Of a stretch of 64,000 nt of DNA, positions 2,239 to 62,034 are shown piece after piece. Position 1 is the first letter of the stretch. Every line of letters begins with the position of its first letter. A model generated the notes under the pieces. That model was given only the letters and a program-made list of their open reading frames with translations. It had not been told where the DNA came from and ran no database searches. A program made the position numbers and the translations under genes. The stretch is taken from positions 111,078-175,077 of the forward strand of contig JAQULF010000001.1 in assembly GCA_028718745.1 (NCBI GenBank), given 5' to 3'. Source of the DNA: Patescibacteria group bacterium. GTDB taxonomy: Bacteria > Patescibacteriota > JACPGU01.

Positions 2239-2246
2239 GGATAGTA

Positions 2247-2273
2247 TTAGCACTCGGTATAGGTGAGTGCCAG
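2247..2273 (+). promoter_or_regulatory. CIRCE operator (HrcA binding site) TTAGCACTC-N9-GAGTGCCAG
   Basis: ttagcactcggtataggtgagtgccag matches the CIRCE consensus TTAGCACTC-N9-GAGTGCTAA with 2 mismatches in the right arm; lies between the promoter and the hrcA start. Confidence 0.8.
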
Positions 2274-2338
2274 ATATATCAATAACACCCTTACGGGTGT
2301 CAATCCAAATTCGGAATGACAGCCGTGAGGCTGTCAAA

Positions 2339-3025
2339 ATGTTCACCCGCAAAAACAACATCCTACAATCCATCATTGAGGAATACATCACCACCGGTGA
2401 ACCGGTTGGTTCAAAAGGCTTGAGCGGATTTTTCGGTTTCTCCTCGGCAACGATCCGATCCGAGATGGTAAGGTTGGAAAAAGAAGGCCTGATCTACCAG
2501 CCGCACACCTCTGCCGGCCGCATCCCAACCGAAAAAGGATTGCGAGAATATGTTGATAGTTTGAAAGTTGATCTTACAAAAATTAACAAAGACGATATTA
2601 AAAGATTCGCCGAGAAGAAAGGCATGGATAAAGTTTTGAAAGTAATATCGTCCATCGCCGGCGGAAATACCGCTTTTTACATCACGCCAAAATCAATCCG
2701 CTATTATGGACTGTCTGAAACTTTAAAACAGAAAGAATTTGATGATAAAGAAAAAGTTGTGCGATTTGCCAAAGTGATTGATAACCTTCCCGATTTCGTA
2801 CAATTACTGGAATTTGATGAGGGATCGCCGCTTAAAGTATATATAGGAAAAGAAAATGTTTACAAATTCGCGCAAGATTTCGCCACCGTCGCAGTGTATT
2901 TCCCATTCGGAAAAGAACTCTGCGTCCTCGGCGTATTGGGCCCAGTAAGAATGCCTTATCGCAAGATTATTCCGTATCTACTTTCTACAGCAGAGAATTT
3001 CCGTAATAAAAAACTTATAAAATAG
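2339..3025 (+). CDS. hrcA: heat-inducible transcription repressor HrcA
   Basis: [28 protein letters not shown]...[38 protein letters not shown] is the classic HrcA N-terminal winged helix. ATG at 2339 preferred over the track start at 2267, which would overlap CIRCE. Confidence 0.85.
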
Positions 3026-3028
3026 AAT

Positions 3029-3090
3029 CCCGTAGGGGCGCAATTCATTGCGCCCGACAGGAAGGGCGCGATAAATCGACGCCCCTACAA
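3029..3090. repeat. GC-rich palindromic element (GTAGGGGCG...CGCCCCTAC termini, inner hairpin GGGCGCAA-TTCA-TTGCGCCC), intergenic hrcA-grpE
   Basis: cccGTAGGGGCGCaattcattGCGCCCgacaggaagggcgcgataaatcgaCGCCCCTACaaa; same terminal motif as the in-frame elements at 14493, 14986, 32077, 32427. Confidence 0.6.
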
Positions 3091-3106
3091 ATGCAAGGAG
3101 AAAATC

Positions 3107-3580
3107 ATGGTAAAAAAACAACCCAAAATCAATATTGAAGAAATTTTACAAGAGCGCGACGCCAACCTCGCCGGTTGGAAACGATCGTTAGCCGACTTTG
3201 AAAATTTCAAGAAACAATTTGAGAAAGAAAAAGAAACCCTTATTCATTACATGAAAGCTGACGCGATATCAAAACTTTTACCCATCATGGCAAATTGGGA
3301 AGTCGCAATGAAAAACATTCCGGAAGACCAAAAAGACAGCGAATGGATCAAAGGAATCATGGCAATCAAAAACCAATTAGACGAATTCTTTCAAAAAGAA
3401 GGTTTAGAAAAAGTAAAAACAGTCGGCGAGAAATTCAATCCCAATATCCACGAAGCGATGCTGGAAGAAGAATCCGACCAACCCGACGGCACAATCCTTG
3501 AAGAATTCGAACCTGGATATCGGATCGGAGAAAGAGTTATCAAATATCCGAAAGTGAAAGTTAGCAAAAGGAGGAATTAA
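3107..3580 (+). CDS. grpE: nucleotide exchange factor GrpE
   Basis: Coiled-coil N-terminus plus C-terminal beta domain (…HEAMLEEESDQPDGTILEEFEPGYRIGERVIKYPKVKVS); position between hrcA and dnaK. Confidence 0.9.
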   Translation: MVKKQPKINIEEILQERDANLAGWKRSLADFENFKKQFEKEKETLIHYMKADAISKLLPIMANWEVAMKNIPEDQKDSEWIKGIMAIKNQLDEFFQKEGLEKVKTVGEKFNPNIHEAMLEEESDQPDGTILEEFEPGYRIGERVIKYPKVKVSKRRN

Positions 3581-3585
3581 GAATC

Positions 3586-3879
3586 ATGAATTATGAATCA
3601 AGAAGTAACAAAATATTTGCAGATGCATTGGGAGTATATAGCGAAGGTATAAAATGGATTGTTCTGCCAGCATTCATGACCGGAACCATGTTGCTTTCAG
3701 CCGGATGCGACTCAAATCAAAAAAGTTGTTTTGCGTTACCAACAAATAATCCATTACCAATAATCCGAATAATAGATCAGCCAAGTAGTGGTTTAGCATC
3801 AGAAACACAATACCCAATATTTGTAGCAGTAAATAATTCAGCCACGACCACTTCTTCTGGTTCAATATCAATAAAATAA
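3586..3879 (+). CDS. hypothetical small lipoprotein (possible lipobox LLSAGC)
   Basis: 97-aa ORF immediately after grpE with RBS aaggagg; hydrophobic N-terminus followed by Cys. Confidence 0.3.
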   Translation: MNYESRSNKIFADALGVYSEGIKWIVLPAFMTGTMLLSAGCDSNQKSCFALPTNNPLPIIRIIDQPSSGLASETQYPIFVAVNNSATTTSSGSISIK

Positions 3880-3883
3880 AAAT

Positions 3884-4432
3884 GTGATAAAAATAATATT
3901 TGAGCCACACGGCACAACCACCGATAACGAAAAACATTTAGCTTCTGGATTGTATGATGTTGAACTGTCGGAACTTGGCGTTCAACAAGCAAAAGAGCTA
4001 GGCGAAAGACATAAGGACGAAGAATTTGACGCCATCTTCTGTTCAGACCTTCAAAGATCCTATAAGACAGCAGAAATAGCATTTGGGAACAAATATCCGA
4101 TTATTAGAGATAAAAGGCTAAACGAGTGTGATTATGGAGACCTAACACAACATCCGAGCGGCGAAGTTGATGCCGAAAAGATAAAAAGAGTTAACGAACC
4201 CTTCCCGAACGGTGAAAGCTATAAACAAGCATCAGAAAGAATGAGAAATTTTTTGGAGGATTTATTAAAAGAATACGATGAAAAAAGAATCATGATTATT
4301 GGACACCGAGCAACCCAATACGGATTAGAAAGATGGATAAATGGCGTAACAATAGAAGACAGTGTCCGCAATCACGAAAATTGGAAATGGCAACCAGGAT
4401 GGACATATGAATTGAAAGAAATTAAAAATTAA
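3884..4432 (+). CDS. histidine phosphatase family protein (phosphoglycerate-mutase-like), GTG start
   Basis: N-terminal FEPHGTT and C-terminal IIGHRATQYGLE motifs resemble the RHG/His motifs of branch-1 histidine phosphatases. The R-to-P substitution in the first motif makes the catalytic assignment uncertain. Confidence 0.5.
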   Translation: MIKIIFEPHGTTTDNEKHLASGLYDVELSELGVQQAKELGERHKDEEFDAIFCSDLQRSYKTAEIAFGNKYPIIRDKRLNECDYGDLTQHPSGEVDAEKIKRVNEPFPNGESYKQASERMRNFLEDLLKEYDEKRIMIIGHRATQYGLERWINGVTIEDSVRNHENWKWQPGWTYELKEIKN

Positions 4433-4503
4433 AACATTATTTAAAAAATTCAAAAATTATAAAATTAAGAATTTTAACCAATTATTAAGAAAGGAGAAAA
4501 AAT

Positions 4504-6408
4504 ATGAGTAAAATTATCGGAATTGACCTTGGAACCACCAACTCAGCTGTTGCTGTAATGCGTGGAGGCAAGGCGGAAATTATCACCAACGCAGAAGGAA
4601 ATCGCACCACGCCTTCTATCGTTGCGGTTACCAAAACTGGTGAAAGATTAGTGGGGCAAGTTGCAAAAAGACAGGCCGTCACCAATAGTGACAACACTGT
4701 TTTTTCTGTAAAAAGATTTATCGGTCGCGCATACGGCGACAAAGAAACCCAGAAAGATATCAAAGCGATGCCTTACCAAATCGTGAAAGGCAAAAACGAC
4801 GCAGTAGAAGTAAAAATGGGCGACAAAGCTTATAGCGCTCCGGAAATCTCGGCGATGGTTCTTGGCAAATTAAAAGCTGACGCGGAAGCGTTTCTTGGCG
4901 AAAAAGTAACCGAAGCGGTCATTACCGTTCCGGCGTATTTTAACGATGCGCAAAGACAGGCAACCAAAGATGCGGGTAAAATCGCCGGATTGGATGTGAA
5001 AAGAATTATCAACGAACCGACCGCTGCCGCCCTAGCTTATGGTTTGGATAAGAAGAAAAATGAGCAAATCGCTGTTTACGATCTAGGCGGTGGAACATTT
5101 GATATTTCAATTTTGGAAATTGGAGATGGAGTATTTGAAGTGAAGAGTACTAATGGCGATACGCATCTTGGTGGTGATGATTTTGACCAAAAGATAATTG
5201 AATGGCTAACCGCAGAATTTAAGAAAAGCGAAGGAGTGGATTTATCCAAAGATAAAATGGCTTTGCAAAGATTAAAAGTTGAAGTGGAAAAAGCAAAACA
5301 CGAATTATCTTCTTCTATGGAAACCGATGTGAATATCCCATTTGTTACCGCTGACGAATCCGGACCAAAACATCTCAATATCAAATTGACTCGCGCGAAA
5401 CTGGAAGAATTGGTTGGCGACCTGATTGAAGCGACGATCAAACCATGTGAAAAAGCTTTGAAAGATGCTGGTTTGAAAGCCTCTGACATTGATGAAGTAA
5501 TCATGGTTGGCGGTATGACCAGAATGCCAAAAGTTGTTGAAACCGTAAAGAAATTCTTCGGCAAAGATCCGCATCAAGGCGTAAACCCTGACGAAGTGGT
5601 AGCTATCGGCGCTGCGATCCAAGGCGGAGTTCTGGGTGGAGATGTTAAAGATGTATTATTACTCGATGTAACTCCTCTATCACTTGGAATTGAAACCCTT
5701 GGTGGTGTATCCACAAAATTAATTGAAAGAAATACGACTGTTCCAACTAGCAAATCTCAAGTATTTTCAACTGCCGCTGACAATCAGCCATCGGTAGAAA
5801 TAAATATCTTGCAAGGTGAAAGAGAATTTGCCGCTGATAATAAATCTTTAGGCAGATTTATTTTGGAAGGATTATTGCCGGCGCCTCGCGGAGTTCCGCA
5901 AGTTGAAGTATCTTTTGATATTGATGCAAACGGAATTCTAAATGTGAAAGCGGTTGATAAAGGAACCGGTAAAGAACAGAAGATCACCATCACCGGAAGT
6001 TCCGGTTTAAGTAAGGAAGATGTTGAAAAAATGGCAAAGGATGCCGAGCTTCACGCCGAGGAAGATAAGAAAAAGAAAGAAACTATTGAGATAAAAAATA
6101 TGGCCGAAAATATGATCTATCAAACTGAAAAAACTATCCGAGATAACGCTGATAAGATCGATGAAGCTACTAAGAAAGATGTTGAAGAAAAAATCGAAGC
6201 GCTTAAGAAATTAAAAGATTCTGAAGATATCGAAGAGATTAAGAAGAAAACAGATGAGCTAATGCAAGCTGCGCAAAAAATCGGGGAACAGGTATATAAA
6301 GCTTCTCAAGAGCAGGCAAAGCCAGAAGGCGAACCGGCTACTAAAGAAAAGACCGAAAACAAAAAACCGGATGAGCCGGTTGAGGGAGAATACCAAGAAG
6401 GAAAATAG
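4504..6408 (+). CDS. dnaK: molecular chaperone DnaK (Hsp70)
   Basis: [36 protein letters not shown] and the rest are an unmistakable Hsp70. Confidence 0.97.
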
Positions 6409-6549: not shown

Positions 6550-6575
6550 CCCCGCCTTGGCGGGGTAAATATAAA
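6550..6575 (+). promoter_or_regulatory. GC hairpin CCCCGCC-ttg-GCGGGG followed by GTAAATATAA, 15 nt upstream of the start codon; variant of the leader motif at 25565/27916/51301
   Basis: ccccgccttggcggggtaaatataaataaaaacaaaaaatATG; the 13-mer GGGGTAAATATAA is shared with the 27916 copy. Confidence 0.4.
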
Positions 6576-6589
6576 TAAAAACAAAAAAT

Positions 6590-7261
6590 ATGAACAGAAG
6601 AACACTGATCATAGCGGGAGCATTGATAGTTCTTGCTATAATACTTTTGCTACTGCCTAGCCTATTAAAAAAACCGGCCGGCACTACCCCGACCAATAAT
6701 ACTGCTCAAACCCAGCCGGTCACCACCAATGTAGCCGCTTTCCCGCTGGACACTGCAAAAGTAAGTACCTTATCTGCCCAAGCGCAAAAAGAATTCGACT
6801 TTGCTTTTACGAAAGCCAAGGAATGGAGAAATGATGTTGCGCCGGCAGCCGTGATAGTAAAATATACCGGTTCCATCGATGATAAAAACGGCAAAAACAC
6901 TTATGCTTTTGTTTCGCCATCTTTGAGCCAATTTTACTTCACGCTTACTTTTGATCAAGCTGTAAATGCTAGCGGAGAAAATAATTTCCAAAGAATTCTT
7001 TATTTTAAAGAAGACTATTTCTTACCAGCCAATACCGCTGTCATGCCAATAAACTATTGGAAATTAAATTATCTGGACGCGCTTAAAAAGGCCGATGACC
7101 TAGGAGGTAAAAACATCCGAACCGACAACAAAAATTACGATGTTAATCTGGTTCTATCGGCTCAAACCGGCGCTTATCTCATGTGGGATGTAGAGTACTT
7201 GGTGAATGGGACAAAAATGTTTTCCGTATCCATCAATGCGTATGATGGAACGGTGAAGTAG
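6590..7261 (+). CDS. hypothetical membrane-anchored secreted protein
   Basis: N-terminal TM/signal anchor (LIIAGALIVLAIILLLL), Thr/Pro-rich linker, globular C-terminus. Confidence 0.5.
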   Translation: MNRRTLIIAGALIVLAIILLLLPSLLKKPAGTTPTNNTAQTQPVTTNVAAFPLDTAKVSTLSAQAQKEFDFAFTKAKEWRNDVAPAAVIVKYTGSIDDKNGKNTYAFVSPSLSQFYFTLTFDQAVNASGENNFQRILYFKEDYFLPANTAVMPINYWKLNYLDALKKADDLGGKNIRTDNKNYDVNLVLSAQTGAYLMWDVEYLVNGTKMFSVSINAYDGTVK

Positions 7262-14364: not shown

Positions 14365-15207
14365 TTATTTTCCTTTCGCCAGCACTATTCCCCAAACGCT
14401 TCTCGCCCCATTTAATTTTAATACTTTAGCGCACTCTTCCAAGGTTGTGCCGGTAGTAGTGATGTCGTCAACTAACAAAATATTTTTACCCCGTAGGGAA
14501 CAGCCATGGCTGTTCCTGATATTTGCATTATTCCCCACGAACACAAACACATCTTTCAAATTATTCAACCTTTGTTCTCGGTCCAATTCGGCTTGGGGAG
14601 TAGTATATTTTTTTCTAACCAAAATATGTTGGTTCAAAGCTCCTGCTTTGAACCTTAATGTACTTCTATACATTTTGATGATCTCCCTCGCCAAGATCTC
14701 CGCCTGATTAAACCCCCTCTGCCTCAATCTCTTTTTATGCAACGGCACCGAAATAACCAAATCGAATTCCGGAAAATCCGGAGGTCCGACCTGGGGGTAC
14801 TCCCACTGGTCGCACCTCGGGATTTTTGTGTTTTCTTGCTTTTTTGCTTTTTTGTTTTCTTGTCTTAACTTTCCCGCCATCATCTTCCCTAAAATATTTC
14901 CGATATCAAAAATGTAATTGTATTTAAAATGATGAATTACTTCCTTAAGAACTCCTTCTCCAAAATTAGCGCAAATGAAAATACCGTCTAGGGCGGGCGG
15001 GGAAACCCCGCCCCTACAAAAATGACAAAATTCACCGGCCTCACTCGGCCTCCGGCATTCCGGGCAAAAAGGCTGTTTAATAATGTCGATCGTCTTCAAA
15101 CATTCCCCGCAAATCCATTGCCCTTCTACCCCGCAACCCAGACAAGTACGAGGAAAGAGAAGATCAAAGACGAAGTTACGCGATAAAAAATAAAGTTTTT
15201 TCAGCAT
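14365..15207 (-). CDS. comF: ComF-family protein (N-terminal Zn-ribbon + phosphoribosyltransferase domain) carrying 2-3 in-frame palindromic element insertions
   Basis: CLGCGVEGQWICGECL...CPECRRP...CHFCRG zinc-ribbon and C-terminal ILLVDDITTTGTTLEECAKVL PRTase motif. Confidence 0.7.
   Translation of the reverse strand: MLKKLYFLSRNFVFDLLFPRTCLGCGVEGQWICGECLKTIDIIKQPFCPECRRPSEAGEFCHFCRGGVSPPALDGIFICANFGEGVLKEVIHHFKYNYIFDIGNILGKMMAGKLRQENKKAKKQENTKIPRCDQWEYPQVGPPDFPEFDLVISVPLHKKRLRQRGFNQAEILAREIIKMYRSTLRFKAGALNQHILVRKKYTTPQAELDREQRLNNLKDVFVFVGNNANIRNSHGCSLRGKNILLVDDITTTGTTLEECAKVLKLNGARSVWGIVLAKGK
14493..14516. repeat. GC-rich palindromic element GTAGGGAACAGCCATGGCTGTTCC inserted in frame in comF (encodes NSHGCS)
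   Basis: Perfect 20-bp palindrome GGAACAGCCATGGCTGTTCC preceded by ccGTAG; identical core at 32077-32104 inside the RT gene. Confidence 0.7.
14778..14822. repeat. degenerate GC-rich palindromic insertion in comF (arms CCGGAGGTCCGACC / GGTCGCACCTCGG)
   Basis: Imperfect ~20-nt inverted arms around a GGGGGTACTCCC core, encoding PRCDQWEYPQVGPPDFPE. Confidence 0.35.
14986..15017. repeat. GC-rich palindromic element GTCTAGGGCGGGCGGGGAAACCCCGCCCCTAC inserted in frame in comF (encodes RGGVSPPALDG)
   Basis: GGGCGGGG-AAA-CCCCGCCC perfect hairpin with GT(CT)AGGG / CCCCTAC-aaa termini, as in the 3029 element. Confidence 0.65.
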
Positions 15208-25559: not shown

Positions 25560-25564
25560 ATTCA

Positions 25565-25596
25565 CCCCGTCAAATCCGAAAGGCAATTTGACGGGG
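25565..25596 (+). promoter_or_regulatory. conserved GNRA-tetraloop hairpin CCCCGTCAAATCC-GAAA-GGCAATTTGACGGGG + GTAAAAATAA, 13 nt upstream of the ATG of 25610
   Basis: 11-bp perfect inverted arms; a 32-nt stretch is identical to the copy at 27916-27948. Confidence 0.6.
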
Positions 25597-25609
25597 TAAA
25601 AATAAAATT

Positions 25610-26971
25610 ATGAATAAAAAAATTCTCATTATCGGTGGAGCCGTAATCGCTCTAATAATAATTATTATTGGGGGTATTCTGATTTTTAGAAAACCGGCAC
25701 CAACGCCAAGTCCAACTCCGGTAGATTGCGTTAAAGATCCTACCAATAAAGCTTGTCCTCAATTACCCAATCCCAATCAAGAAGCTAACCTTACTATGTG
25801 GGGAGTTTTTGACGATGGCTCCATTTTTCAGCCGCTAATAAGCGCTTTCAATAAACAGTATCCCAACATCAAAATTACTTATGTAAAAAAATCATATAGC
25901 GATTATGAGGCTACTATGGTTGATGCTATCGCTTCGGATACGGGACCGGATATTTTTAATGTATCCAATTTCTGGCTTCCAAAGCATAAATCAAAGATGG
26001 CTTCCGCGCCTCAAGAAGTTTTTTCAGCCCAGGAATTCAACCAAGGCTTTATTCAATCAGCCTACGATGATTTTGTTTCGGATGGCAAGGTTTATGGAGT
26101 TCCTTTATATACCGACAATCTCGTTCTCTATTACAATAAAAGACTGATGGCCAAAGACAGTCTTTATGAACCGCCCCAGAATTGGAACGATGTTGTAACC
26201 TATTCAAAGATATTAACCAAAAAAGTTCCCGGCGGTTCCGACGAGTTAACTCAAGCCGGAATAGCCTTGGGAACTAGTAGTATTACCAGATCCGCCGATA
26301 TTCTGACAGCTATGATGCTGCAAACCGGCACACCTATAATATCTGATGACAAGCGATCTTTCAATTTCAATCAATTTAGAAAAAACGCGCAGGGAAGTCC
26401 GGAGTATCCCGGCACCAATGCCTTAAGCTTTTACACTTCTTTCGCCGACCCCTCCAAAGCTTCTTATTCATGGAATGACTCATTCGGAGATCCGGTTAAC
26501 GCCTTTGCTCAAGAAAAAGTGGCTATGATCGTTGGTTATTCGTATTTTGCTTCCTTGATAGAAAGAGCTAATCCAACCGTATCTTATGATATTGCTCCTC
26601 TGCCACAAATAAAGGGGGCTCCCGAAAATGTTGATTTTGTTAACTACTGGGGCTGGTCGGTTTCCAATCGATCAAAAAATCAGACGGCCGCTTGGTTGTT
26701 CTTGAAATTTCTAACCGAGAAGGAACAAATTAATAACTACCTTCAGGCAACCGGCAGAACTTCTCCTCAAAAAAATACCGTGGGAGCCAGCAATAAAGTT
26801 TTTGATGGCCAGAAATATTATGCTAAAACTATTTTTAAGGGAAATGCGGAAAACTTTGATCAGATCTTTACCGAAATGATCGATGATGTAGTAAAATACA
26901 AACAGCCCAATCAAAGCGCTATTGATACAGCTGCCCGAAAGGCTAATGAAATGTTAAGTAAATACTATTAA
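25610..26971 (+). CDS. ABC transporter extracellular solute-binding protein (family 1, sugar-type)
   Basis: Signal anchor plus Pro/Thr linker, then TMWGVFDDGSIFQPLISAFNKQYPNIKITYV…, typical of SBP_bac_1. Confidence 0.75.
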   Translation: MNKKILIIGGAVIALIIIIIGGILIFRKPAPTPSPTPVDCVKDPTNKACPQLPNPNQEANLTMWGVFDDGSIFQPLISAFNKQYPNIKITYVKKSYSDYEATMVDAIASDTGPDIFNVSNFWLPKHKSKMASAPQEVFSAQEFNQGFIQSAYDDFVSDGKVYGVPLYTDNLVLYYNKRLMAKDSLYEPPQNWNDVVTYSKILTKKVPGGSDELTQAGIALGTSSITRSADILTAMMLQTGTPIISDDKRSFNFNQFRKNAQGSPEYPGTNALSFYTSFADPSKASYSWNDSFGDPVNAFAQEKVAMIVGYSYFASLIERANPTVSYDIAPLPQIKGAPENVDFVNYWGWSVSNRSKNQTAAWLFLKFLTEKEQINNYLQATGRTSPQKNTVGASNKVFDGQKYYAKTIFKGNAENFDQIFTEMIDDVVKYKQPNQSAIDTAARKANEMLSKYY

Positions 26972-27062
26972 AACCAAAGAGGCGGGGGTTGATATTTTTT
27001 CCAACAATAGAAAGATAAAAACCATAAAAAAAATCATTGCCTTATTTTTTGGCCTGTATTTT

Positions 27063-27839
27063 GTGTCTTTATCGATTTTTTTTATATTATTGCCGCAAAA
27101 TGTTCTGGCTGCTCCCATAATAGATGATAGTTCCGGCGGCCAAATCATAACCGATCCTACATCCGGCTCACAGATACAAGCAAATGAAGCCGCAGCGAAA
27201 CAACAGATTAAAACGGCCTGTGATGTCATTGGCGGAACAGTTAACCAGACAACGGGCTATTGCGAAAAAGATGGGAGAGTTTTGGGCAGTAACGAACTGT
27301 ATGGACCAAAAATAAGCGTCATTGATTCACTAGTTGGCATCTTTCAGAACCTTATCATCTCGGCGGCTTTTTTGATATTTGTCTGGGGCATTCTTACCTA
27401 TACAACCAGTGCGGGAGGAAAAGGCGTAGAGAAGGCCAAAGAGTATATTCTTAGCGCTGTTATAGCTTTAGCGGCACTTGTTCTGGTCAGAGTGTTTTTT
27501 AAAAATACCATTGGGGAGACTCCATTGCCAACAGCAACAGGATCGCTTGATGAAATTTTAAATATAATAAGAGGTGGAGCAGGCACTACCGGACCATTGG
27601 AAATTTTTAATGTGCTAAGCCGCCTTTTGACCGGAATTACCAACTGGTTGCTTATAGGTTTTCCGGCTACAGCTCTTATTTTTATAATGTATTCCGGCCT
27701 TCTTTATATTTTTTCCGCCGGTAATCCTAAAAAAACCGAGGCGGCCGTAAAAAGCCTAAACACTTCTATTCTTGGCTTCGTTTTCTTCTTAATGTTATAT
27801 GCTCTGTGGTATTTCATTCGAAGTTTTCTGGGAGCATAG
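27063..27839 (+). CDS. hypothetical secreted multi-TM protein, possible pilin-like/TrbC-like component
   Basis: Signal peptide, soluble domain, then several C-terminal hydrophobic helices; adjacent to the VirB2-like gene. Confidence 0.3.
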   Translation: MSLSIFFILLPQNVLAAPIIDDSSGGQIITDPTSGSQIQANEAAAKQQIKTACDVIGGTVNQTTGYCEKDGRVLGSNELYGPKISVIDSLVGIFQNLIISAAFLIFVWGILTYTTSAGGKGVEKAKEYILSAVIALAALVLVRVFFKNTIGETPLPTATGSLDEILNIIRGGAGTTGPLEIFNVLSRLLTGITNWLLIGFPATALIFIMYSGLLYIFSAGNPKKTEAAVKSLNTSILGFVFFLMLYALWYFIRSFLGA

Positions 27840-27915
27840 AGGTATTGCAAAAAAATATATATCTTGTAAAATAAAATAGAAAATAACTGGTCCATGCGGA
27901 CTGTTGATAATATAT

Positions 27916-27948
27916 CCCCAGTCAAATCCGAAAGGCAATTTGACGGGG
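27916..27948 (+). promoter_or_regulatory. second copy of the conserved hairpin leader motif (CCCCAGTCAAATCCGAAAGGCAATTTGACGGGG + GTAAATATAA), 22 nt upstream of the ATG of 27971
   Basis: Identical 32-nt core to 25565-25596. Confidence 0.6.
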
Positions 27949-27970
27949 TAAATATAACTAAAATAAAAAG

Positions 27971-28366
27971 ATGATTAAAAAGGTAAAACTAATCGCAGGC
28001 ACTTTTGTCTTGTCTACCATGGTTCTTATCGCCAATAAAGTTTCGGCTGTTACCTGTATTACTCCTAATAACCCTCCGGGATGTACTTCGGGCTCTATCG
28101 ATACGAAGGAGTTAGCTGTAGGTAATCTTAATACTTATATAAGCGATGCTTTGGGCTTTGCTATCTGGGCGGCCGGATTATTGTCAGTTGTATTCATAAT
28201 TATTGGAGGCTTCCAATACATTACCGCCGGAGCCAGCAAAGATGGTGCTACCAAAGCAAAAAACACCTTGACTTATGCAATTATCGGTTTAGTTATTGTT
28301 TTGCTAGCGCTTGTTATTCGAAATTATGTTCTTACCAGCATAGGCGTATCCATCCCCGTTCTGTAA
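27971..28366 (+). CDS. TrbC/VirB2-like pilin-type protein (signal peptide + two TM helices)
   Basis: MIKKVKLIAGTFVLSTMVLIANKVSA signal; …FAIWAAGLLSVVFIIIGGFQYITAGASKDGATKAKNTLTYAIIGLVIVLLALVI two-helix hairpin typical of conjugative pilins; truncated paralog at 46198. Confidence 0.45.
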   Translation: MIKKVKLIAGTFVLSTMVLIANKVSAVTCITPNNPPGCTSGSIDTKELAVGNLNTYISDALGFAIWAAGLLSVVFIIIGGFQYITAGASKDGATKAKNTLTYAIIGLVIVLLALVIRNYVLTSIGVSIPVL

Positions 28367-31753: not shown

Positions 31754-32833
31754 CTAACTGCTACGACCCTTTTTGTCAATTAAATCTGATAACTCTTTTG
31801 TTAATTTCCAGCCCTCACAGTGTTTTAAAACCCCAAAATAAGACTGTCGAATTTGCTCAAATGATTCTTGGCTAATAACTTTTTGATCTAATAGTCTCTT
31901 TTTTGCTCTCAACTTCTTAAACATTCTTTTCTTGGTCTTCGTTCGGAGAATTTTGTGATACGGAAAAACCACATATCCCAAAAAATCAATTCCTTGATTT
32001 GGTTTGCGGATAATGGTTTTGTCAGGATGTAATTGCAACTTAAGGTTGTCTTTTATAAAATCGCCGACCGCATCCTGTAGGGAACAGCCATGGCTGTTCC
32101 CTACCGAATACAATATCACAAAATCATCACAATACCGGGCATACGATTTAACCTTTAAGCGATGTTTTACAAACTGATCTAATTCGTTCAAGTAGATATT
32201 GGCAAAAAGTTGCGAGGTAAGATTGCCCAGCGGAATCCCCGTACTCTCTCTCTCTCTCTCGTTTTGTTTTGTGTTAAACGAATCGATTGTTTCTTTAACT
32301 AACCACAAAACATTCTCATCTTTGATTTTCTTTTTAATTAAATCAAACAATATCTCATGGTCAACGGACGCGAAAAATTTTTTGATGTCTAATTTAATGA
32401 TGACACGATAATATTTTACTTCCCCTGTAGAGACACGCCATGGCGTGTCTCTACGAAGAAAACTCTGCAATCGATCTACTGCCTTATGTGTTCCTTTTTC
32501 GTTTCTGCAGGAATATGAATCATGGATAAATGTTTTGTCGAAGATAGGATAGAGGATTCTATAAATAGCGTGATGAACTATGCGATCTTTCACAGTAGCT
32601 TTGTGAATGTGCCGTCTTTTTGGATCATTGATAAAAAATGAGGTATAATGGCTATGCTTATAGGTTTTAGATTTAAGCTCCTCGTGAAGATTAAAGAGAT
32701 TATCTTCAAGATGTAGCTCAAATTCTTGGACATCTTTCTTTTTTCTTTTCCCTTTTTTAAATTCATTCCAACTACAAAATAAATTATCAATACTAATAAT
32801 TTGGGAGAATAAATTATCATGGAGAATTTTCAT
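31754..32833 (-). CDS. diversity-generating retroelement (DGR) reverse transcriptase, with two in-frame palindromic element insertions; probable start at Met36 of the track ORF (32831-32833)
   Basis: RT motifs RRHIHKATVKDRIVHHAIYRIL (dom 1-2), YYRVIIKLDIKKFFASVDH (dom 3), GIPLGNLTSQLFANIYLNELD (dom 4, DGR-specific [IVL]GxxxSQ instead of QGxxxSP), YARYCDDFVIL (YxDD); adjacent avd, TR and VR. Confidence 0.85.
   Translation of the reverse strand: MKILHDNLFSQIISIDNLFCSWNEFKKGKRKKKDVQEFELHLEDNLFNLHEELKSKTYKHSHYTSFFINDPKRRHIHKATVKDRIVHHAIYRILYPIFDKTFIHDSYSCRNEKGTHKAVDRLQSFLRRDTPWRVSTGEVKYYRVIIKLDIKKFFASVDHEILFDLIKKKIKDENVLWLVKETIDSFNTKQNERERESTGIPLGNLTSQLFANIYLNELDQFVKHRLKVKSYARYCDDFVILYSVGNSHGCSLQDAVGDFIKDNLKLQLHPDKTIIRKPNQGIDFLGYVVFPYHKILRTKTKKRMFKKLRAKKRLLDQKVISQESFEQIRQSYFGVLKHCEGWKLTKELSDLIDKKGRSS
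32077..32104. repeat. GC-rich palindromic element GTAGGGAACAGCCATGGCTGTTCCCTAC inserted in frame in the RT gene (encodes …VGNSHGCSL…)
   Basis: Perfect 28-bp palindrome; core identical to the comF copy at 14493. Confidence 0.7.
32427..32454. repeat. GC-rich palindromic element GTAGAGACACGCCATGGCGTGTCTCTAC inserted in frame in the RT gene (encodes …DTPWRVSTGE…)
   Basis: Perfect 28-bp palindrome with the same GTAG / CTAC termini and central CCATGG. Confidence 0.7.
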
Positions 32834-33172
32834 AGTCCGTCTATTATTCAGAAGGTTTATGATTTCTATGCTGAACTTTATTTGGTGGTAGAAAAGATGC
32901 CCAAGAAAGACAAATATGCCCTGGGCGAGAAACTGCAAAAAATCACTTTGGATTTTCTGGAATTGCTAATCACTGCCAGCAATAAATCAAAAGATAAAAA
33001 ATATCCCTTCATGGAATTAGCTAGTACAAAGCTTGAAGTTCTGAAAATTACTATCCGACTCTCACATGAAGTTAAAGCGATACCAACGAGCAAATATCAT
33101 TCTCTGGAAGAAAGACTTCAGGAAATTGGTAGGATGCTTGGGGGATGGATAAACTCAATAAAAACACCTTGA
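32819..33172 (+). CDS. avd: DGR accessory variability determinant (Avd), four-helix-bundle protein; encoded divergently to the RT, with start codons overlapping by 15 nt
   Basis: 117 aa; C-terminus EERLQEIGRMLGGWINSIKTP parallels Bordetella phage bAvd …AEVGRILGSWIARVNRK; N-terminal IIQKVYDFYAELYLVVEKMPKKDKYALGEKL parallels bAvd helix 1-2. Confidence 0.7.
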   Translation: MENFHSPSIIQKVYDFYAELYLVVEKMPKKDKYALGEKLQKITLDFLELLITASNKSKDKKYPFMELASTKLEVLKITIRLSHEVKAIPTSKYHSLEERLQEIGRMLGGWINSIKTP

Positions 33173-47247: not shown

Positions 47248-48120
47248 GTGAAAAAAATCATTGTGGTACTAGCTGTAATTCTGTTTGGCCTCTCGTTCTG
47301 TCTGAATGCGTCGGCCGTTGTTCCCAATAAAGACAAGGTCGTCGGGAAACCGGCCAATCCAAAGTTGATTGTCAAGATGGACAAAAGCAAGGCCGGCGGC
47401 AACATCGTTGTTTTTTCCGAAGATGGCGGCAAAACCTTTTACCCCATTTTCGACGGCGACGGGGTTTGCGACCAAAATGTTTTTGTCTGGTCGCCGGACG
47501 GCAAATATGTCTTCTGGATCAGCAGCGATATGAGCTGCGAAGCTCCCTTCCTCAAAGACGGGGTATGGCATCACTACGCTCGGCTGTATGATCCGGCCAA
47601 AAGAATACTATTTCTCTGGCCATCGTTGCCATCGGCTCCCAACTATCACCATACTCTGGGCGTGAACTGGGCAAAAGGGTCGGGGCATGACATTCTCATG
47701 AGGACAGCCGACAAGGGTCAGAATTCGGGAGAAACGATCGAGGCCACTGTTGATGAGTGGGAGAAAAATTCCTCTCGAGTGGATATGGATCCCTATCTCC
47801 AGTGGCTGGCTTCTTGGATCACCTCTGTTGTGAAAAAGAACCAGCTAGACGCTCTTTATTCCTTGACGAAAAACCTCCCCCCGAAGGAAGTTGACAGTAT
47901 CGCGATAATGAAAAAAGAATACAGCCCCAAAAACCTCAAAAGAATCTTCGTAAGAGAATTTGATTCTGATGAGGAAGGGGCAAGAGGGGTAGAAGTTCGC
48001 GTTAATACATTCTCAAACAACGCCTCCTATTTTTTTGAAATAGGCGTTGTTGTCAAAAATAAATTTCCGCTTCCGCCCGAAATAATTTCTTTCCGAATCG
48101 GGATGGAGGGAGGCGATTAG
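47248..48120 (+). CDS. hypothetical secreted protein (GC-richer than surroundings), GTG start
   Basis: Signal peptide MKKIIVVLAVILFGLSFCLNASA; promoter TTGCCT-17-TATAAT and RBS AGGAG upstream. Confidence 0.45.
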   Translation: MKKIIVVLAVILFGLSFCLNASAVVPNKDKVVGKPANPKLIVKMDKSKAGGNIVVFSEDGGKTFYPIFDGDGVCDQNVFVWSPDGKYVFWISSDMSCEAPFLKDGVWHHYARLYDPAKRILFLWPSLPSAPNYHHTLGVNWAKGSGHDILMRTADKGQNSGETIEATVDEWEKNSSRVDMDPYLQWLASWITSVVKKNQLDALYSLTKNLPPKEVDSIAIMKKEYSPKNLKRIFVREFDSDEEGARGVEVRVNTFSNNASYFFEIGVVVKNKFPLPPEIISFRIGMEGGD

Positions 48121-51228: not shown

Positions 51229-51257
51229 TTGACAAAGTCGCTTTTCTGTGATACAAT
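51229..51257 (+). promoter_or_regulatory. sigma70-like promoter TTGACA-17-TACAAT for the GGDEF gene
   Basis: cTTGACAaagtcgcttttctgtgaTACAATg. Confidence 0.5.
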
Positions 51258-51300
51258 GTCCTAATTTCAAAAAATCAAAAAAGATTTCTTGAAAGAAAAT

Positions 51301-51332
51301 CCCAGTCAAATCTTGCTTCGCAATTTGACGGG
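51301..51332 (+). promoter_or_regulatory. variant copy of the conserved hairpin leader motif (CCCAGTCAAAT…ATTTGACGGG + ATAAAACAAAA), within the 5' UTR 12 nt upstream of the ATG at 51344
   Basis: Same arms (GTCAAAT/ATTTGAC) as copies at 25565 and 27916; lies ~45 nt downstream of the predicted -10, so it is transcribed. Confidence 0.5.
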
Positions 51333-51343
51333 ATAAAACAAAA

Positions 51344-59958: not shown

Positions 59959-62034
59959 ATGCCAGATCCACAAGACAAAAAACTAGATAATATCCAGCCC
60001 CCCAAAGGTTCCTACTTTGATTTGACTAACAAAGATGCGGTTCTTCAGCCGGATAAGGCTAAGGATTTGGGCGCTATTACTTCCGGTTTTGGTGTTAAGA
60101 AGGAAATAGGATCAACACCACTAAAAGTAGAGACGAATGGCCATTCGTCTCTACAGGAGAAACCAAAAGAGACTAAATCATCCGGAGGTTTCTTTTCCTT
60201 CGGACCAAAGATGACTAAAGAAGAATTGGAAAAACAAAAAGCCGAGGAAAGAAAAAAATCAGAAGCCATTAAAAGAGAAGAAGAGGCTAAAAAAACTTAT
60301 GAAATGGGGTTGGCTTCTATTCGCGACCTGATCGCCCCTTCTTCAGTACAAATTACGCCAAATTATCTAGTTTTAAACGATCGCTTTGTTCGCACTCTTT
60401 TTATTTTCAATTACCCCCGCTTTATTTTTCCAAACTGGTTATCGCCGCTGATTAATATGGATATGACTCTCGATATCGGCATGTTTATTTATCCCAAGGA
60501 AAATAAAGGCGTTCTCGACACTTTAAGAAAAAGATCGGGGCAAGTGGAGTCGGCTCTCAATATAGAAGCGCAAAAAGGACTGGTTCGAAATCCGGAATTG
60601 GAAACCGCTTTGCAAGACATTGAGGAATTAAGAGAAAGATTGGCCAGAGGAGAAGAGAGATTATTTCAGTTGTCTCTATATATAACTCTTCAAGCTAAGG
60701 ATCTGGACGAGCTGGATCTAGCTACTAAAAAAGTAGAATCAACCCTTGGAGGTTCTTTGATTTATACCAAAAGAGCCGGATTTCAGATGGATCAAGGCTT
60801 TCGCTCCACTCTTCCTTTGGGATCTGACTTTTTGGATATTAGAAGAAATATGAACACAGGTTCGCTTTCCACTACTTTCCCATTTACCTCAATGGATTTA
60901 ACTTCCAATCAGGGAATTATGTACGGTATCAATCGCCATAATAATGGCTTGATTATTTTTGATCGATTTGAATTGGAAAACTATAATTCAGTTGTTTTTG
61001 CTAAGGCCGGTGCCGGCAAGTCATACGCGGTAAAATTAGAAATTTTACGCTATATGATGTTTGGTACAGATATTATAGTGATTGATCCGGAAAATGAATA
61101 TAAAAATCTTTGCAAAGTGGTTGGCGGGTCATATCTATCCATGAGCTTATCTTCAGATGATAGAATCAATCCTTTTGACTTACCGCCGCTTCCCGACGAT
61201 GCTACGCTCGATATGGGTGAAGATAATTTAAGAAGCACTATTATTACTCAAAAGGGTTTAATGAATTTACTTTTGGGGAAACTTGATCCGGAAGAAGATT
61301 CTTTGATTGAAAAGGCATTGCTTAAAGCTTATGAATTGAAAGGGATTACCAACGATCCAGCTACCCAAAAGGCCAACTTTCCCTTGATGGCCGATGTTTA
61401 CAATGCATTATCGGGAATGCCGAACAGCAATTCATTGATGAAAAGAATGGAAAAATATGTAACCGGAACTTTTTCCAGCATATTTAATAAGCCAACTAAC
61501 ATTGATTTAGATAAGGGCTTTGTTGTTTTTAACATTCGCGATCTGGAAACCTCTTTTCGTCCAATTGCCATGTATATGGTGCTGGATTTTATTTGGTCAA
61601 AGATAAGAAAAGAGTTGCGAAAAAGAATGCTTATCGTCGATGAGGCGTGGCTTATGATGGAATATGAAGATGCGGCCAAATTCATCTATTCAATTGCCAA
61701 AAGAGCTAGAAAGTATTATCTAGGACTAACTACTATAACGCAGGATGTGGAAGACTTTTTATCCTCAAAATACGGCCGCGCTATCGTAACCAACTCTTCA
61801 TTGCAATTGCTTCTCAAACAATCTCCGGCCTCAATTGAATCAGTGGGTAAAACTTTTAATCTAACTCAAGGAGAGCGAGCCTTGCTTCTGGAATCCGGTG
61901 TGGGTGAGGGACTTTTCTTTGCCGGTGTCAATCATGTAGCTATCAAAGTTATCGCTTCTTATACGGAGGATCAGATCGTGACTACCTCTCCAAAGCAGAT
62001 TCAGGAGCTTGAAAAAGCGCAGGGAGAGGTATAG
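59959..62034 (+). CDS. virB4: VirB4/TraC/PrgJ-family type IV secretion ATPase with a ~120-aa low-complexity N-terminal extension
   Basis: Walker A FAKAGAGKSYAVKL, Walker B MLIVDEAWLMM, conserved VIDPENEY and N-terminal VirB4 domain (…IAPSSVQITPNYLVLNDRFVRTLFIFNYPRFIFPNWLSPLINMDMTLDI…). Confidence 0.85.
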   Translation: MPDPQDKKLDNIQPPKGSYFDLTNKDAVLQPDKAKDLGAITSGFGVKKEIGSTPLKVETNGHSSLQEKPKETKSSGGFFSFGPKMTKEELEKQKAEERKKSEAIKREEEAKKTYEMGLASIRDLIAPSSVQITPNYLVLNDRFVRTLFIFNYPRFIFPNWLSPLINMDMTLDIGMFIYPKENKGVLDTLRKRSGQVESALNIEAQKGLVRNPELETALQDIEELRERLARGEERLFQLSLYITLQAKDLDELDLATKKVESTLGGSLIYTKRAGFQMDQGFRSTLPLGSDFLDIRRNMNTGSLSTTFPFTSMDLTSNQGIMYGINRHNNGLIIFDRFELENYNSVVFAKAGAGKSYAVKLEILRYMMFGTDIIVIDPENEYKNLCKVVGGSYLSMSLSSDDRINPFDLPPLPDDATLDMGEDNLRSTIITQKGLMNLLLGKLDPEEDSLIEKALLKAYELKGITNDPATQKANFPLMADVYNALSGMPNSNSLMKRMEKYVTGTFSSIFNKPTNIDLDKGFVVFNIRDLETSFRPIAMYMVLDFIWSKIRKELRKRMLIVDEAWLMMEYEDAAKFIYSIAKRARKYYLGLTTITQDVEDFLSSKYGRAIVTNSSLQLLLKQSPASIESVGKTFNLTQGERALLLESGVGEGLFFAGVNHVAIKVIASYTEDQIVTTSPKQIQELEKAQGEV

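What the first reader, a model, noticed from the sequence alone, without database searches (positions are those of the whole stretch)
25565..27948. Conserved GNRA-tetraloop hairpin in the 5' leader, 12-22 nt upstream of the start codons of several secreted/membrane/signalling genes
A 32-nt block GTCAAATCC-GAAA-GGCAATTTGACGGGGTAAA is identical at 25565-25596 (13 nt before the solute-binding-protein ATG, directly after the hsp20 stop) and 27916-27948 (22 nt before the VirB2-like pilin ATG). A variant with the same arms is at 51301-51332, 12 nt before the GGDEF ATG and ~45 nt downstream of a good TTGACA-17-TACAAT promoter, so it is transcribed as 5' UTR. A looser relative (CCCCGCC-ttg-GCGGGG + GTAAATATAA, sharing the 13-mer GGGGTAAATATAA) precedes the ORF at 6590. 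The 11-bp perfect stem with a GAAA tetraloop followed by an A-rich tract looks like a structured RNA leader or a protein-binding site rather than a terminator (A-tract, not U-tract). No Shine-Dalgarno is evident between hairpin and ATG, so the element may substitute for or occlude ribosome loading. This may be a regulon marker for envelope/secretion genes.
Basis: seen in the sequence. Interest (0 to 1): 0.6.

Follow-up and report, generated by a model that had tools for sequence, protein, structure and literature searches.

The report
Mobile hairpin repeat in CPR leaders
The three "leader hairpins" are copies of a short palindromic repeat that is scattered through many ultra-small (CPR/Patescibacteria) bacterial genomes, including in frame inside housekeeping genes; here they are recent insertions, not a regulatory signal for secretion genes.

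Summary
An identical 37-nt hairpin unit, (A)CCCC(A)GTCAAAT-CCGAAAGGCA-ATTTGACGGGG-TAAA, lies at 25564-25600 and 27916-27952, and a variant lies at 51300-51337. All three are on the + strand, 10-22 nt before a start codon. The fourth "relative" at 6550-6565 is not a member.

The same arms recur many times per genome in many Patescibacteria genomes. Of 110 copies I classified, 44 lie in frame and in the sense direction inside housekeeping ORFs such as ArgRS, GatA, TopA, PolA, SecA and RecJ. The other 62 are intergenic, mostly in leaders of unrelated genes.

Compensatory changes support the stem. However, at all three window sites, close relatives with conserved synteny and promoters have an empty site or a different hairpin. 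ArgRS proteins that are 98% identical differ in carrying it.

My best reading is a REP/RPE-like, insertion-polymorphic palindromic element, co-transcribed with its host genes. Relatives encode RAYT-like Y1 transposases, but these are flanked by other hairpins, so the mobilising enzyme is unknown. No Rfam family or paper in the searched library describes it. An exapted RNA role, suggested by sense bias and conserved two-hairpin leaders in Paceibacteria-type genomes, is not excluded.

The parts
25564..25600 (+). Copy 1 of the palindromic repeat ('hp1'): A-CCCC-GTCAAAT-CCGAAAGGCA-ATTTGAC-GGGG-TAAA. It lies in the 50-nt hsp20-SBP spacer, 5 nt after the hsp20 stop and 13 nt before the ATG at 25610.
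   Evidence: 41.4 bits; -21.1 kcal/mol. The orthologous spacers are only 11-19 nt and lack it.
27916..27952 (+). Copy 2: CCCC-A(bulge)-GTCAAAT-CCGAAAGGCA-ATTTGAC-GGGG-TAAA. It lies in the leader of the T4SS-pilin gene, whose ATG is at 27971.
   Evidence: (47.8 bits). Relative L123 has the same promoter and leader but nothing at this point.
51300..51337 (+). Copy 3 (variant): T-CCC-A-GTCAAAT-CTTGCTTCGCA-ATTTGAC-GGG-A-TAAA. The outer pair is changed from C-G to T-A and the loop is different. It lies in the GGDEF leader, whose ATG is at 51344.
   Evidence: (38.1 bits). Relative L127 is empty at this site, and L128 and L129 hold other hairpins there.
51229..51257 (+). Promoter TTGACA-17-TACAAT (with TG before the -10 element) upstream of copy 3. 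This places copy 3 in the 5' UTR.
   Evidence: Read. It is nearly invariant in four genomes. Transcription itself is inferred.
27845..27872 (+). Promoter-like TTGCAA-16-TAAAAT upstream of copy 2. This places copy 2 in the 5' UTR.
   Evidence: The same motif is conserved in L122, L123 and L124. Transcription is inferred.
6550..6565 (+). CCCCGCC-TTG-GCGGGG hairpin after dnaK. It is listed only to exclude it: it is a different small hairpin, not a member of this family.
   Evidence: (12.1 bits, E about 1.1). Similar CCGCC..GGCGG hairpins sit in pilin leaders of L122 and L124.

Best explanation
Each hairpin is a copy of a short (about 37 nt) palindromic repeat element with the form A-CCCC-(A)-GTCAAAT-loop-ATTTGAC-GGGG-YAAR. 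The family is dispersed in many CPR/Patescibacteria genomes.

Shown:
- It is multi-copy.
- Its stem is maintained by compensatory substitutions.
- It occurs in leaders, in intercistronic spacers and, in frame, inside unrelated housekeeping ORFs.
- The three copies in this window are lineage-specific insertions. They lie between a conserved promoter (or upstream gene) and the ancestral A-rich ribosome-loading stretch. Relatives have empty sites or other hairpins there.

Inferred:
- It spreads as a DNA hairpin, the way REP/REPIN elements and IS200/IS605 ends do, through a trans-acting hairpin-recognising HUH (Y1, RAYT-like) enzyme. I put this step at about 0.3.
- Copies survive only where they are harmless: in untranslated leader sequence, or in one sense reading frame that encodes a hydrophilic loop peptide (PSQIKSQFDG in the common sub-family).
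- Because the copies here are co-transcribed, they add a -15 to -21 kcal/mol stem 10-22 nt ahead of the start codon. This could modestly alter mRNA stability or ribosome access, but that would be a side effect and not a regulon signal.
For: Family and copy number. A scan of species-representative genomes hit its limit at 113 stretches. About 80 of the copies found lie in records labelled Paceibacterota, Taylorbacteria, Patescibacteria or (doubtfully) Saccharibacteria. Single genomes carry 8 to 18 or more copies.

In-frame ORF copies. Of 110 classified copies, 44 lie in the sense direction inside ORFs and 4 antisense, always in the one sense frame that is free of stop codons. Pfam confirms the hosts as Amidase/GatA, PolA, UvrA, SecA, MBL, RsmE, RecJ, TopA, XerD-like and ComEC and ArgRS.

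Insertion polymorphism.
- The hsp20-SBP spacer is 50 nt here, against 11, 19 and 19 nt of plain A-rich sequence in L122, L124 and L125.
- The pilin leader of L123 reads straight across the insertion point.
- The GGDEF leader of L127 is empty, while the promoter is nearly invariant.
- The ArgRS loop peptide is present in 16 of 120 homologues. These are scattered over several clusters, and pairs that are 98% identical differ in carrying it. A decayed copy was also seen.

Proliferation signs. There is a tandem x3 array of a 36-nt unit (L117). A longer composite repeat is shared by UvrA and RNase R in one genome.

Stem selection. Variants GTGAAAT/ATTTCAC, CCCTATGAAAT/ATTTCATAGGG and CCAC..GTGG coexist with the canonical form. 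Six of 12 pairs show changes on both sides, which 0 of 500 shuffles reached.

Candidate enzyme class. RAYT-like Y1_Tnp genes with HUH and YIHLNP motifs occur in the relative L122, next to the orthologous hsp20, and in L062. Both are flanked by REP-like hairpins.

No described RNA family. Rfam gave nothing at the gathering or E-value thresholds.
Against: - No transposase was linked to this particular hairpin. The two RAYT-like genes found are flanked by a different hairpin (GGAGGT-N3-ACCTCC), and none lies in the 64-kb window.
- There is no target-site duplication and no GTAG head.
- Placement is not neutral. There is a strong sense bias in ORFs (44:4). Intergenic copies between same-strand genes run 23 sense to 11 antisense. 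Fifteen copies lie in divergent regions and 1 in a convergent region, and many sit 9-45 nt from a start codon.
- In Paceibacteria-type genomes the hairpin is part of a conserved two-hairpin leader abutting the ATG of many genes, and a second covarying hairpin follows it inside ArgRS. These points fit an RNA-level role at least as well.
- The family scan required exact arms, so sequence conservation is overstated by ascertainment.
Confidence: 0.68

Rival explanations
1. It is a portable cis-acting RNA module. The transcribed hairpin would be the binding site of a conserved CPR RNA-binding protein or ribonuclease, and would set mRNA stability or translation wherever it occurs (5' UTRs and coding regions). 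On this reading its spread and retention are driven by that function. This generalises the first reader's idea but drops the secretion regulon.
For: - Orientation follows transcription. ORF copies run 44 sense to 4 antisense, and in divergent intergenic regions paired copies each point to their own gene.
- Many copies lie 9-45 nt before a start codon.
- There is a conserved leader of about 80 nt, hp1 plus a second covarying hairpin whose 3' arm abuts the ATG, before nusA, serS, priA, ruvA, mutM, ftsE, rplJ and yebC.
- The loop can be expanded into a three-way junction while the stem is kept.
- A second covarying hairpin follows it inside the ArgRS coding sequence.
- Convergent intergenic regions are almost avoided, 1 against 15 in divergent regions.
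Against: - It is absent from the orthologous leaders of all three window genes in relatives that keep the promoter and synteny.
- It is patchy among 98%-identical ArgRS proteins, and decayed copies exist.
- Other, unrelated hairpins occupy the same sites in relatives.
- The sense bias in ORFs is also what selection on the encoded peptide would give: the sense frame is hydrophilic and the antisense frames are hydrophobic.
- No Rfam family matches.
- No candidate binding protein was identified.
Confidence: 0.17
2. It is a by-product of hairpin-prone DNA dynamics without a dedicated transposase. Mechanisms would include template switching, slippage or gene conversion between palindromes at replication forks. 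Short palindromes would then be copied between AT-rich leader sites and loop-coding segments.
For: - No target-site duplication and no linked transposase.
- The ArgRS site is a microsatellite-like, hypervariable stretch where different short repeats replace one another rather than inserting cleanly.
- A tandem array exists.
- Several unrelated palindrome families share the same hot spots.
Against: Near-identical 37-nt units occur in unrelated contexts and in different genomes, including the window's CPR3/Microgenomates-like lineage and Parcubacteria-type genomes. This is hard to obtain without a sequence-specific copying mechanism or selection.
Confidence: 0.07
3. It is a double-stranded DNA operator. 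The inverted repeat GTCAAAT-N9/10-ATTTGAC would bind a dimeric transcription factor near promoters.
For: - It is a palindrome with an approximately constant spacer, close to promoters in the window.
- The half-site resembles the CtsR heptad GGTCAAA. This resemblance is recalled from my own knowledge and was not tested.
Against: - Loop expansions of 40-50 nt keep the stem but would destroy dimer spacing.
- A conserved bulged A is present.
- Compensatory arm variants coexist with the canonical arms in the same locus (L062 and L004).
- 44% of copies lie inside ORFs with a strand bias.
- It is absent from orthologous promoter regions.
Confidence: 0.03
4. It is an intrinsic terminator or attenuator, or a DNA-uptake signal.
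For: - It is a stable G+C-ended stem directly after hsp20.
- A consensus scan flags the minus-strand version as terminator-like.
- CPR bacteria are naturally competent (PMC10633639).
Against: - There is no U-tract on the sense strand, and no minus-strand gene to terminate.
- Canonical U-tract terminators exist elsewhere in the window.
- One copy lies in a convergent region against 15 in divergent regions, and 44 lie inside ORFs.
- A density of tens of copies per genome is far below that of uptake sequences (roughly one per kb, from my own knowledge).
- The structure, not just the sequence, is conserved.
Confidence: 0.03

Closest known systems
REP / REPIN elements with RAYT (Y1, HUH) transposases of Proteobacteria (PMC3116915, PMC3337134)
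   Same: - It is a short imperfect palindrome of about 35 nt, present many times per genome and transcribed with neighbouring genes.
- Some copies form inverted doublets 42-48 nt apart.
- Genomes of this clade do encode RAYT-like proteins flanked by hairpins.
   Different: - It has no GTAG head.
- 44% of copies lie inside ORFs, whereas REPs are extragenic by definition.
- Most copies are singletons.
- The RAYT-like genes seen are flanked by a different hairpin.
- The same arms are found in distant CPR lineages, whereas REP families are usually lineage-specific.
Rickettsia palindromic elements (RPE) (reviewed in PMC10969869)
   Same: - They are palindromic repeats inserted in frame into unrelated housekeeping genes, adding a conserved peptide in tolerated loops.
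- They also occur in non-coding sites.
- They occur in reduced genomes of host-dependent bacteria.
- The transposase is unknown.
   Different: - RPEs are about 100-150 bp, against about 37 nt here. Longer composites do occur, as in L070 and L084.
- The sequences are unrelated and the phylum is different.
Correia / CREE elements of Neisseria and other bacterial MITEs (PMC10969869)
   Same: - They sit mostly just upstream of genes and are co-transcribed.
- Their folded RNA can be cut by RNase III or alter expression.
- They show strain-to-strain presence/absence.
   Different: - Correia elements are 100-150 bp with 26-bp terminal inverted repeats, a TA duplication and built-in promoters.
- No duplication and no promoter were found here. 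The TTGAC in the 3' arm has no -10 element at a workable distance (checked by reading the sequences).
Structured 5' leaders (RNA thermometers, protein-binding leaders, riboswitch expression platforms)
   Same: It is a stable hairpin shortly before the start codon. In Paceibacteria-type genomes it is paired with a second hairpin that sequesters the sequence up to the ATG.
   Different: - It is not conserved at orthologous genes.
- It is not tied to a gene class.
- It is also found inside ORFs.
- It has no Rfam match.

Membership tests
REP/REPIN-RAYT | Short (20-40 nt) imperfect palindrome repeated many times in a genome | tested here: met
   There are three copies in 64 kb. Single MAGs carry 8 to 18 or more copies.
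REP/REPIN-RAYT | Located in extragenic space | tested here: not met
   48 of 110 copies lie inside ORFs. Intergenic DNA is still enriched relative to a coding density of about 90%, which is my estimate.
REP/REPIN-RAYT | Conserved GTAG-type head next to the palindrome (defining feature recalled from my own knowledge) | tested here: not met
   The consensus flanks are A-CCCC... and ...GGGG-YAAR. A different palindrome family in the window does carry GTAG...CTAC.
REP/REPIN-RAYT | Inverted doublets (REPINs) as the common unit | tested here: inconclusive
   Inverted pairs 42-48 nt apart occur at L002, L012, L057 and L094. Most copies, including all three in the window, are single.
REP/REPIN-RAYT | A cognate RAYT gene flanked by the repeat | tested here: inconclusive
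   RAYT-like genes occur in L122 (PF01797, E = 4e-7) and L062, but they are flanked by GGAGGT-N3-ACCTCC hairpins and not by this one. None lies in the window. Whole genomes could not be scanned.
Rickettsia palindromic elements (RPE-like coding repeats) | In-frame insertion in unrelated housekeeping ORFs, encoding a conserved peptide | tested here: met
   The peptide (N/D/H)PSQIKSQFDGA occurs in ArgRS, GatA, TopA, PolA, SecA, RecJ, UvrA, XerD-like, ComEC and RsmE. The window's sub-family gives APVKSERQFDGVK in an MBL hydrolase.
Rickettsia palindromic elements (RPE-like coding repeats) | Element length of about 100-150 bp and Rickettsia sequence families | tested here: not met
   The unit is about 37 nt. 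The sequence and host phylum are unrelated.
MITE | Target-site duplication flanking the insertion | tested here: not met
   Comparisons of filled and empty sites show no duplication.
MITE | Parent insertion sequence with the same terminal repeats | not tested
   No IS with these ends was seen in the DNA held. Whole genomes were not available.
   It is absent at hsp20-SBP in L122, L124 and L125, at the pilin leader in L123 and at the GGDEF leader in L127. Promoters and gene order are conserved in all of these.
   six of 12 pairs change on both sides, and 0 of 500 shuffles reach this. The alignment was fitted to the model and includes paralogous copies.
   The downstream or host genes span translation, replication, repair, division and secretion.
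Any Rfam family | Score at or above the gathering threshold | tested here: not met
   Searches (gathering threshold; E up to 5) gave nothing at the three sites.
Intrinsic terminator | U-tract after the stem and a position at gene 3' ends | tested here: not met
   The tail is A-rich. One copy lies in a convergent region against 15 in divergent regions.

The most novel reading that the evidence does not exclude
The hairpin is a transposable RNA control module of CPR bacteria. It would be a sequence-specific stem-loop, mobilised at the DNA level, that is read at the RNA level by a conserved factor (a ribonuclease, an RNA chaperone or a domesticated RAYT-like protein).

Each new insertion in a 5' UTR, or in frame in an ORF, would then recruit a further gene into a genome-wide post-transcriptional network. 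The two-hairpin leaders that abut the ATG of nusA, serS, priA, ruvA and other genes would be its mature form. The PSQIKSQFDG loop insertions in essential enzymes would be its coding footprint.
Probability: 0.15. Interest if true: 0.75.

Novelty: new variant of a known kind. Interest (0 to 1): 0.5.

Why it matters
The window's three hairpins should not be annotated as a riboregulator or a regulon signal. They mark insertion-tolerant leader sites.

More broadly, CPR genomes are among the most streamlined known. Even so, they carry several families of short palindromes that insert into leaders and, in frame, into essential genes. The same 5'-UTR sites are occupied by different hairpins in sister genomes.

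This matters in three ways:
- It is a source of rapid leader and protein-loop variation in organisms that are hard to study.
- It is a caveat for RNA-motif discovery and for gene and start-codon calling in MAGs.
- It offers possible strain markers.

I found no description of REP/RAYT-like or RPE-like repeats in Patescibacteria in the searched literature. If the RNA-level reading holds, it would be a mobile post-transcriptional regulon.

Tried and rejected
- Promoter carried by the element. The 3' arm holds TTGAC, but the nearest -10-like hexamers are 13 nt away in Paceibacteria-type leaders, or would put the transcription start inside the ORF in window copies 1-2. I rejected this by reading the sequences.
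- Split or sequestered Shine-Dalgarno (GGGGT / GGGGTGAT). It is 10-40 nt from the ATG. One relative copy (L116) has its own AAGGAG after the hairpin, and empty sites also lack a Shine-Dalgarno. The hairpin is therefore not needed for one.
- Hammerhead or another ribozyme for the three-way-junction variants. No core motifs were present, and Rfam gave nothing.
- Integron attC. The flanks are not the R''/R' cores (read).
- Type III toxin-antitoxin RNA or a TIGR array, suggested by the 36-nt tandem array in L117. The units are identical and the element is otherwise dispersed.
- Phage origin. There was one hit in 2.9 million viral contigs.
- Antisense match at 47437-47467. It lies inside an ORF and scores 11.7 bits, so I treat it as chance.
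- A neighbour-joining tree of ArgRS timed out. I replaced it with average-linkage clustering.
- A look-up of P0081 DNA failed because the sample file was too large.
- Clean insertion boundaries could not be obtained in ArgRS, because the site is a hypervariable short-repeat stretch.
- The source genome beyond the window could not be fetched. The look-up of the window's SBP returned only a 2.4-kb Logan contig.
Full report
**Observation.**
The sequence is as described. The 32-mer GTCAAATCCGAAAGGCAATTTGACGGGGTAAA occurs exactly at 25569-25600 and 27921-27952, with none expected by chance. The arms GTCAAAT/ATTTGAC occur a third time at 51305-51329. With the outer CCCC/GGGG pairs, the hairpins span 25565-25596, 27916-27948 and 51300-51333. 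They end 13, 22 and 10 nt before the start codons of an SBP_bac_1 protein, a T4SS pilin and a GGDEF protein. As RNA they fold at -21.1, -15.5 and -15.1 kcal/mol, far below shuffled controls. Rfam has no match at its own thresholds or at E up to 5. The fourth "looser relative" at 6550-6565 scores only 12 bits (E about 1) with a model of the family and is a different small hairpin. Lack of a Shine-Dalgarno sequence is common in this genome. Many genes have A-rich leaders and others have clear GGAGG.

**The hairpin belongs to a widespread repeat family.**
I scanned one genome per species for the arms with a free loop.
- The hits that are perfect palindromes in non-CPR genomes look like chance hairpins.
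- About 80 copies lie in records labelled Paceibacterota, Taylorbacteria, Patescibacteria or Saccharibacteria. The last label is doubtful, because their ArgRS clusters with Paceibacterota-labelled proteins.
- These share the consensus A-CCCC-A-GTCAAAT-AAAAAGCCA-ATTTGAC-GGGG-YAAG, with 8 to 18 or more copies per MAG.
- The window's organism is a "Patescibacteria group bacterium" whose nearest named relatives are CPR3 and Microgenomates. It carries a sub-family with the loop CCGAAAGGCA.
- An exact search for that version in metagenomes found four more contigs. One copy lies in frame inside a metallo-beta-lactamase-fold ORF. One lies in the leader of a secreted protein that has its own AAGGAG after the hairpin. 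One contig has a single copy plus a tandem triplet of a 36-nt unit.
- Only one hit was found in 2.9 million viral contigs.

**Where the copies lie.**
I built a covariance model. It found only the three copies in the window with filters off, and 110 non-redundant copies in all held DNA.

| Position | Copies |
|---|---|
| Inside ORFs, sense | 44 |
| Inside ORFs, antisense | 4 |
| Between same-strand genes, sense | 23 |
| Between same-strand genes, antisense | 11 |
| Divergent intergenic regions | 15 |
| Convergent intergenic regions | 1 |
| Intergenic, a flanking gene not held | 12 |

- The sense ORF copies always use the single sense frame that has no stop codon. They encode (N/D/H)PSQIKSQFDGA(R/G).
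- The host ORFs are ordinary housekeeping genes: arginyl-tRNA synthetase, GatA amidase, DNA polymerase I, UvrA, SecA, RecJ, topoisomerase I, a XerD-like recombinase, ComEC and RsmE. The Pfam domains run across the insertion.
- Leader copies precede nusA, serS, priA, ruvA, mutM, ftsE, rplJ, yebC and others.
- There is therefore no link to envelope or secretion genes.

**The stem is under selection.**
Diverged copies keep pairing through double changes: GTGAAAT/ATTTCAC, CCCTATGAAAT/ATTTCATAGGG and CCAC...GTGG. The outer C-G becomes T-A in three copies, including window copy 3. Loops of up to about 50 nt with extra hairpins can be inserted while the stem is kept. On the model alignment, 6 of 12 pairs show changes on both sides, and no shuffle reaches this. 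There is a caveat: that alignment is fitted to the model and the copies are paralogous. Variant and canonical arms coexist in one locus (L062, L004), and the loops can be long. It therefore acts as a single-strand hairpin (RNA or DNA), not as a duplex binding site for a dimer.

**The window copies are insertions.**
Four relatives (62-77% SBP identity) keep the order amidase / hsp20 / SBP / pilins / S20.
- Their hsp20-SBP spacers are AATAAACAAAA, ATAAAAATAAACAACCAAA and AAAATAAATAAAAACAAAA. One relative has an unrelated 131-nt AT-rich repeat. The window has 50 nt with the hairpin.
- In the pilin leader, the promoter and a small covarying 5' hairpin are shared by all. L123 reads GTTGATAATAAAT|TATTAATAAAAAT... 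exactly where the window has the 37-nt unit. L122 and L124 carry a different hairpin plus a Shine-Dalgarno sequence, and L125 carries a large CCCCGTAG...CTACGGGG palindrome.
- In the GGDEF leader, the TTGACA-17-TACAAT region is almost invariant in four genomes. L127 is empty, the window has this hairpin, and L128 and L129 have two other palindromes at the same point.
- The TAAA after the stem belongs to the element. The rest of the A-rich tract is the ancestral spacer.
- No target duplication is visible.
- At the ArgRS site, 16 of 120 homologues carry the peptide, spread over several clusters. Proteins 98% identical elsewhere differ in having it, and a decayed version exists. At the DNA level that site is a hypervariable stretch of short repeats.

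**Mechanism.**
The features fit the known class of short palindromic repeats: REP/REPIN, MITE-like elements, and Rickettsia RPEs for the in-frame habit (PMC3116915, PMC3337134, PMC10969869). These features are multi-copy near-identical units, filled and empty orthologous sites, tandem arrays, composites shared between genes (UvrA and RNase R in one MAG), decay, and survival only in harmless places.

How it is copied is not shown. A hairpin-recognising HUH enzyme is the natural candidate.
- A RAYT-like Y1_Tnp gene (HFHLIL and YIHLNPV motifs) lies next to the orthologous hsp20 in L122, and a homologue lies in L062.
- Both are flanked by, and even contain in frame, a REP-like hairpin.
- That hairpin is GGAGGT-N3-ACCTCC, not this one, and no such gene lies in the window.

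I therefore hold the repeat-element reading at about 0.7, and the RAYT-like step at about 0.3.

**What argues for more than a selfish repeat.**
- Orientation follows transcription, not replication. In divergent regions, paired copies each point to their own gene.
- Copies cluster 9-45 nt before start codons, and convergent regions are almost avoided.
- In Paceibacteria-type genomes the hairpin is followed by a second, covarying hairpin whose 3' arm ends at the ATG. This forms a conserved leader of about 80 nt downstream of TGnTATAAT promoters.
- Inside ArgRS it is followed by another covarying hairpin.

These points keep an exapted RNA role alive, at about 0.17. The ORF sense bias is also what peptide selection would give, and those loci were ascertained through the hairpin itself.

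**Verdict.**
The hairpins are real and structured. They are a generic, insertion-polymorphic palindromic repeat of CPR genomes, not a leader regulon for secretion genes. I found no description of such repeats in Patescibacteria in the searched literature. The family is a new variant of a known kind.

Noticed in passing
window 32077-32104, 32427-32454, 60127-60154, 14493-14516: A second family of perfect palindromes, GTAGRGA-N5-(CATG/GGCC)-N5-TCYCTAC. They have REP-like GTAG/CTAC ends and lie in frame inside ORFs. Two are in a reverse-transcriptase gene (31754-32938, minus strand, PF00078), one is in a VirB4/TraG-like ATPase, and a partial one is in a ComF-like gene.
   Followed up: partly
L122:2770-3399 (-) and L062:7253-7951 (+): RAYT-like Y1 transposase genes (PF01797; HUH and YIHLNP motifs) in CPR relatives. 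Each is flanked by a GGAGGT-N3-ACCTCC hairpin and contains a copy of it in frame (peptide xEVxPP). This resembles a REPtron. In L122 it is inserted next to the orthologue of the window's hsp20.
   Followed up: partly
L127, L128 and L129 around 1440-1500; L122-L125 pilin leaders: The same 5'-UTR positions are empty in one relative and occupied by different, unrelated palindromes in others (CCCTTCTTCG..CGAAGGG; a roughly 110-nt ATCCTAC..GTAGGAT element; TYCGCC..GGCGRA; CCCCGTAG..CTACGGGG). The stretch just upstream of the A-rich start region is a hot spot for hairpin insertions.
   Followed up: partly
L002, L004, L005, L007, L012, L023, L025, L044, L050, L051, L054, L057, L093, L094, L104 (leaders): A conserved leader of about 80 nt in Paceibacteria-type genomes. 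It consists of the hairpin (sometimes expanded to a three-way junction) and a second covarying hairpin, GATGATTTTTA...TAAAAATCATC, whose 3' arm ends at the ATG of nusA, mutM, serS, priA, ftsE, ruvA, rplJ, yebC or NYN genes. It lies downstream of TGnTATAAT promoters.
   Followed up: partly
L117:4678-4790: A tandem array of three identical 36-nt units of the window's hairpin variant, plus a single copy about 120 nt upstream.
   Followed up: no
window 27887-27903 and the orthologous leaders in L122-L124: A small hairpin just downstream of the pilin promoter covaries between relatives (GGTCCATGCGGACT / AGTCCGTACGGACT / GAGCCCGCTCAGGGCT / GAGCCCCTTAGGGGCT). Unlike the repeat, this one is conserved at the orthologous site. 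It may be a genuine 5' stem-loop of the pilin mRNA.
   Followed up: no
window 2243-2270, 2267-6408: An hrcA-grpE-dnaK operon (PF01628, PF01025, PF00012). A CIRCE-like TTAGCACTC-N9-GAGTGC overlaps the hrcA start.
   Followed up: no
window 27712-27758 (+): A sub-threshold Rfam match to the GP20-b RNA motif (29.1 bits; gathering score 36.2; E = 0.0012), inside the 3' end of the pilin-like ORF 27063-27839.
   Followed up: no
L015, L020, L034, L109, L119, L120 (ArgRS coding sequence just after the hairpin): A second hairpin inside the ArgRS ORF keeps its pairing through compensatory changes (CAAGTAC/GTACTTG, CGAGTAT/ATACTCG, CAAGCAT/ATGCTTG) while the peptide varies (ASTSVLEK / ASITILEK / ASITMLEK).
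   Followed up: no
L123:3870-4000: The hsp20-SBP spacer of one relative holds a 131-nt AT-rich element built of inverted CCAATATTCAATA / TATTGAATATTG-type repeats. This is another palindromic insertion at the site where the window has the hairpin.
   Followed up: no
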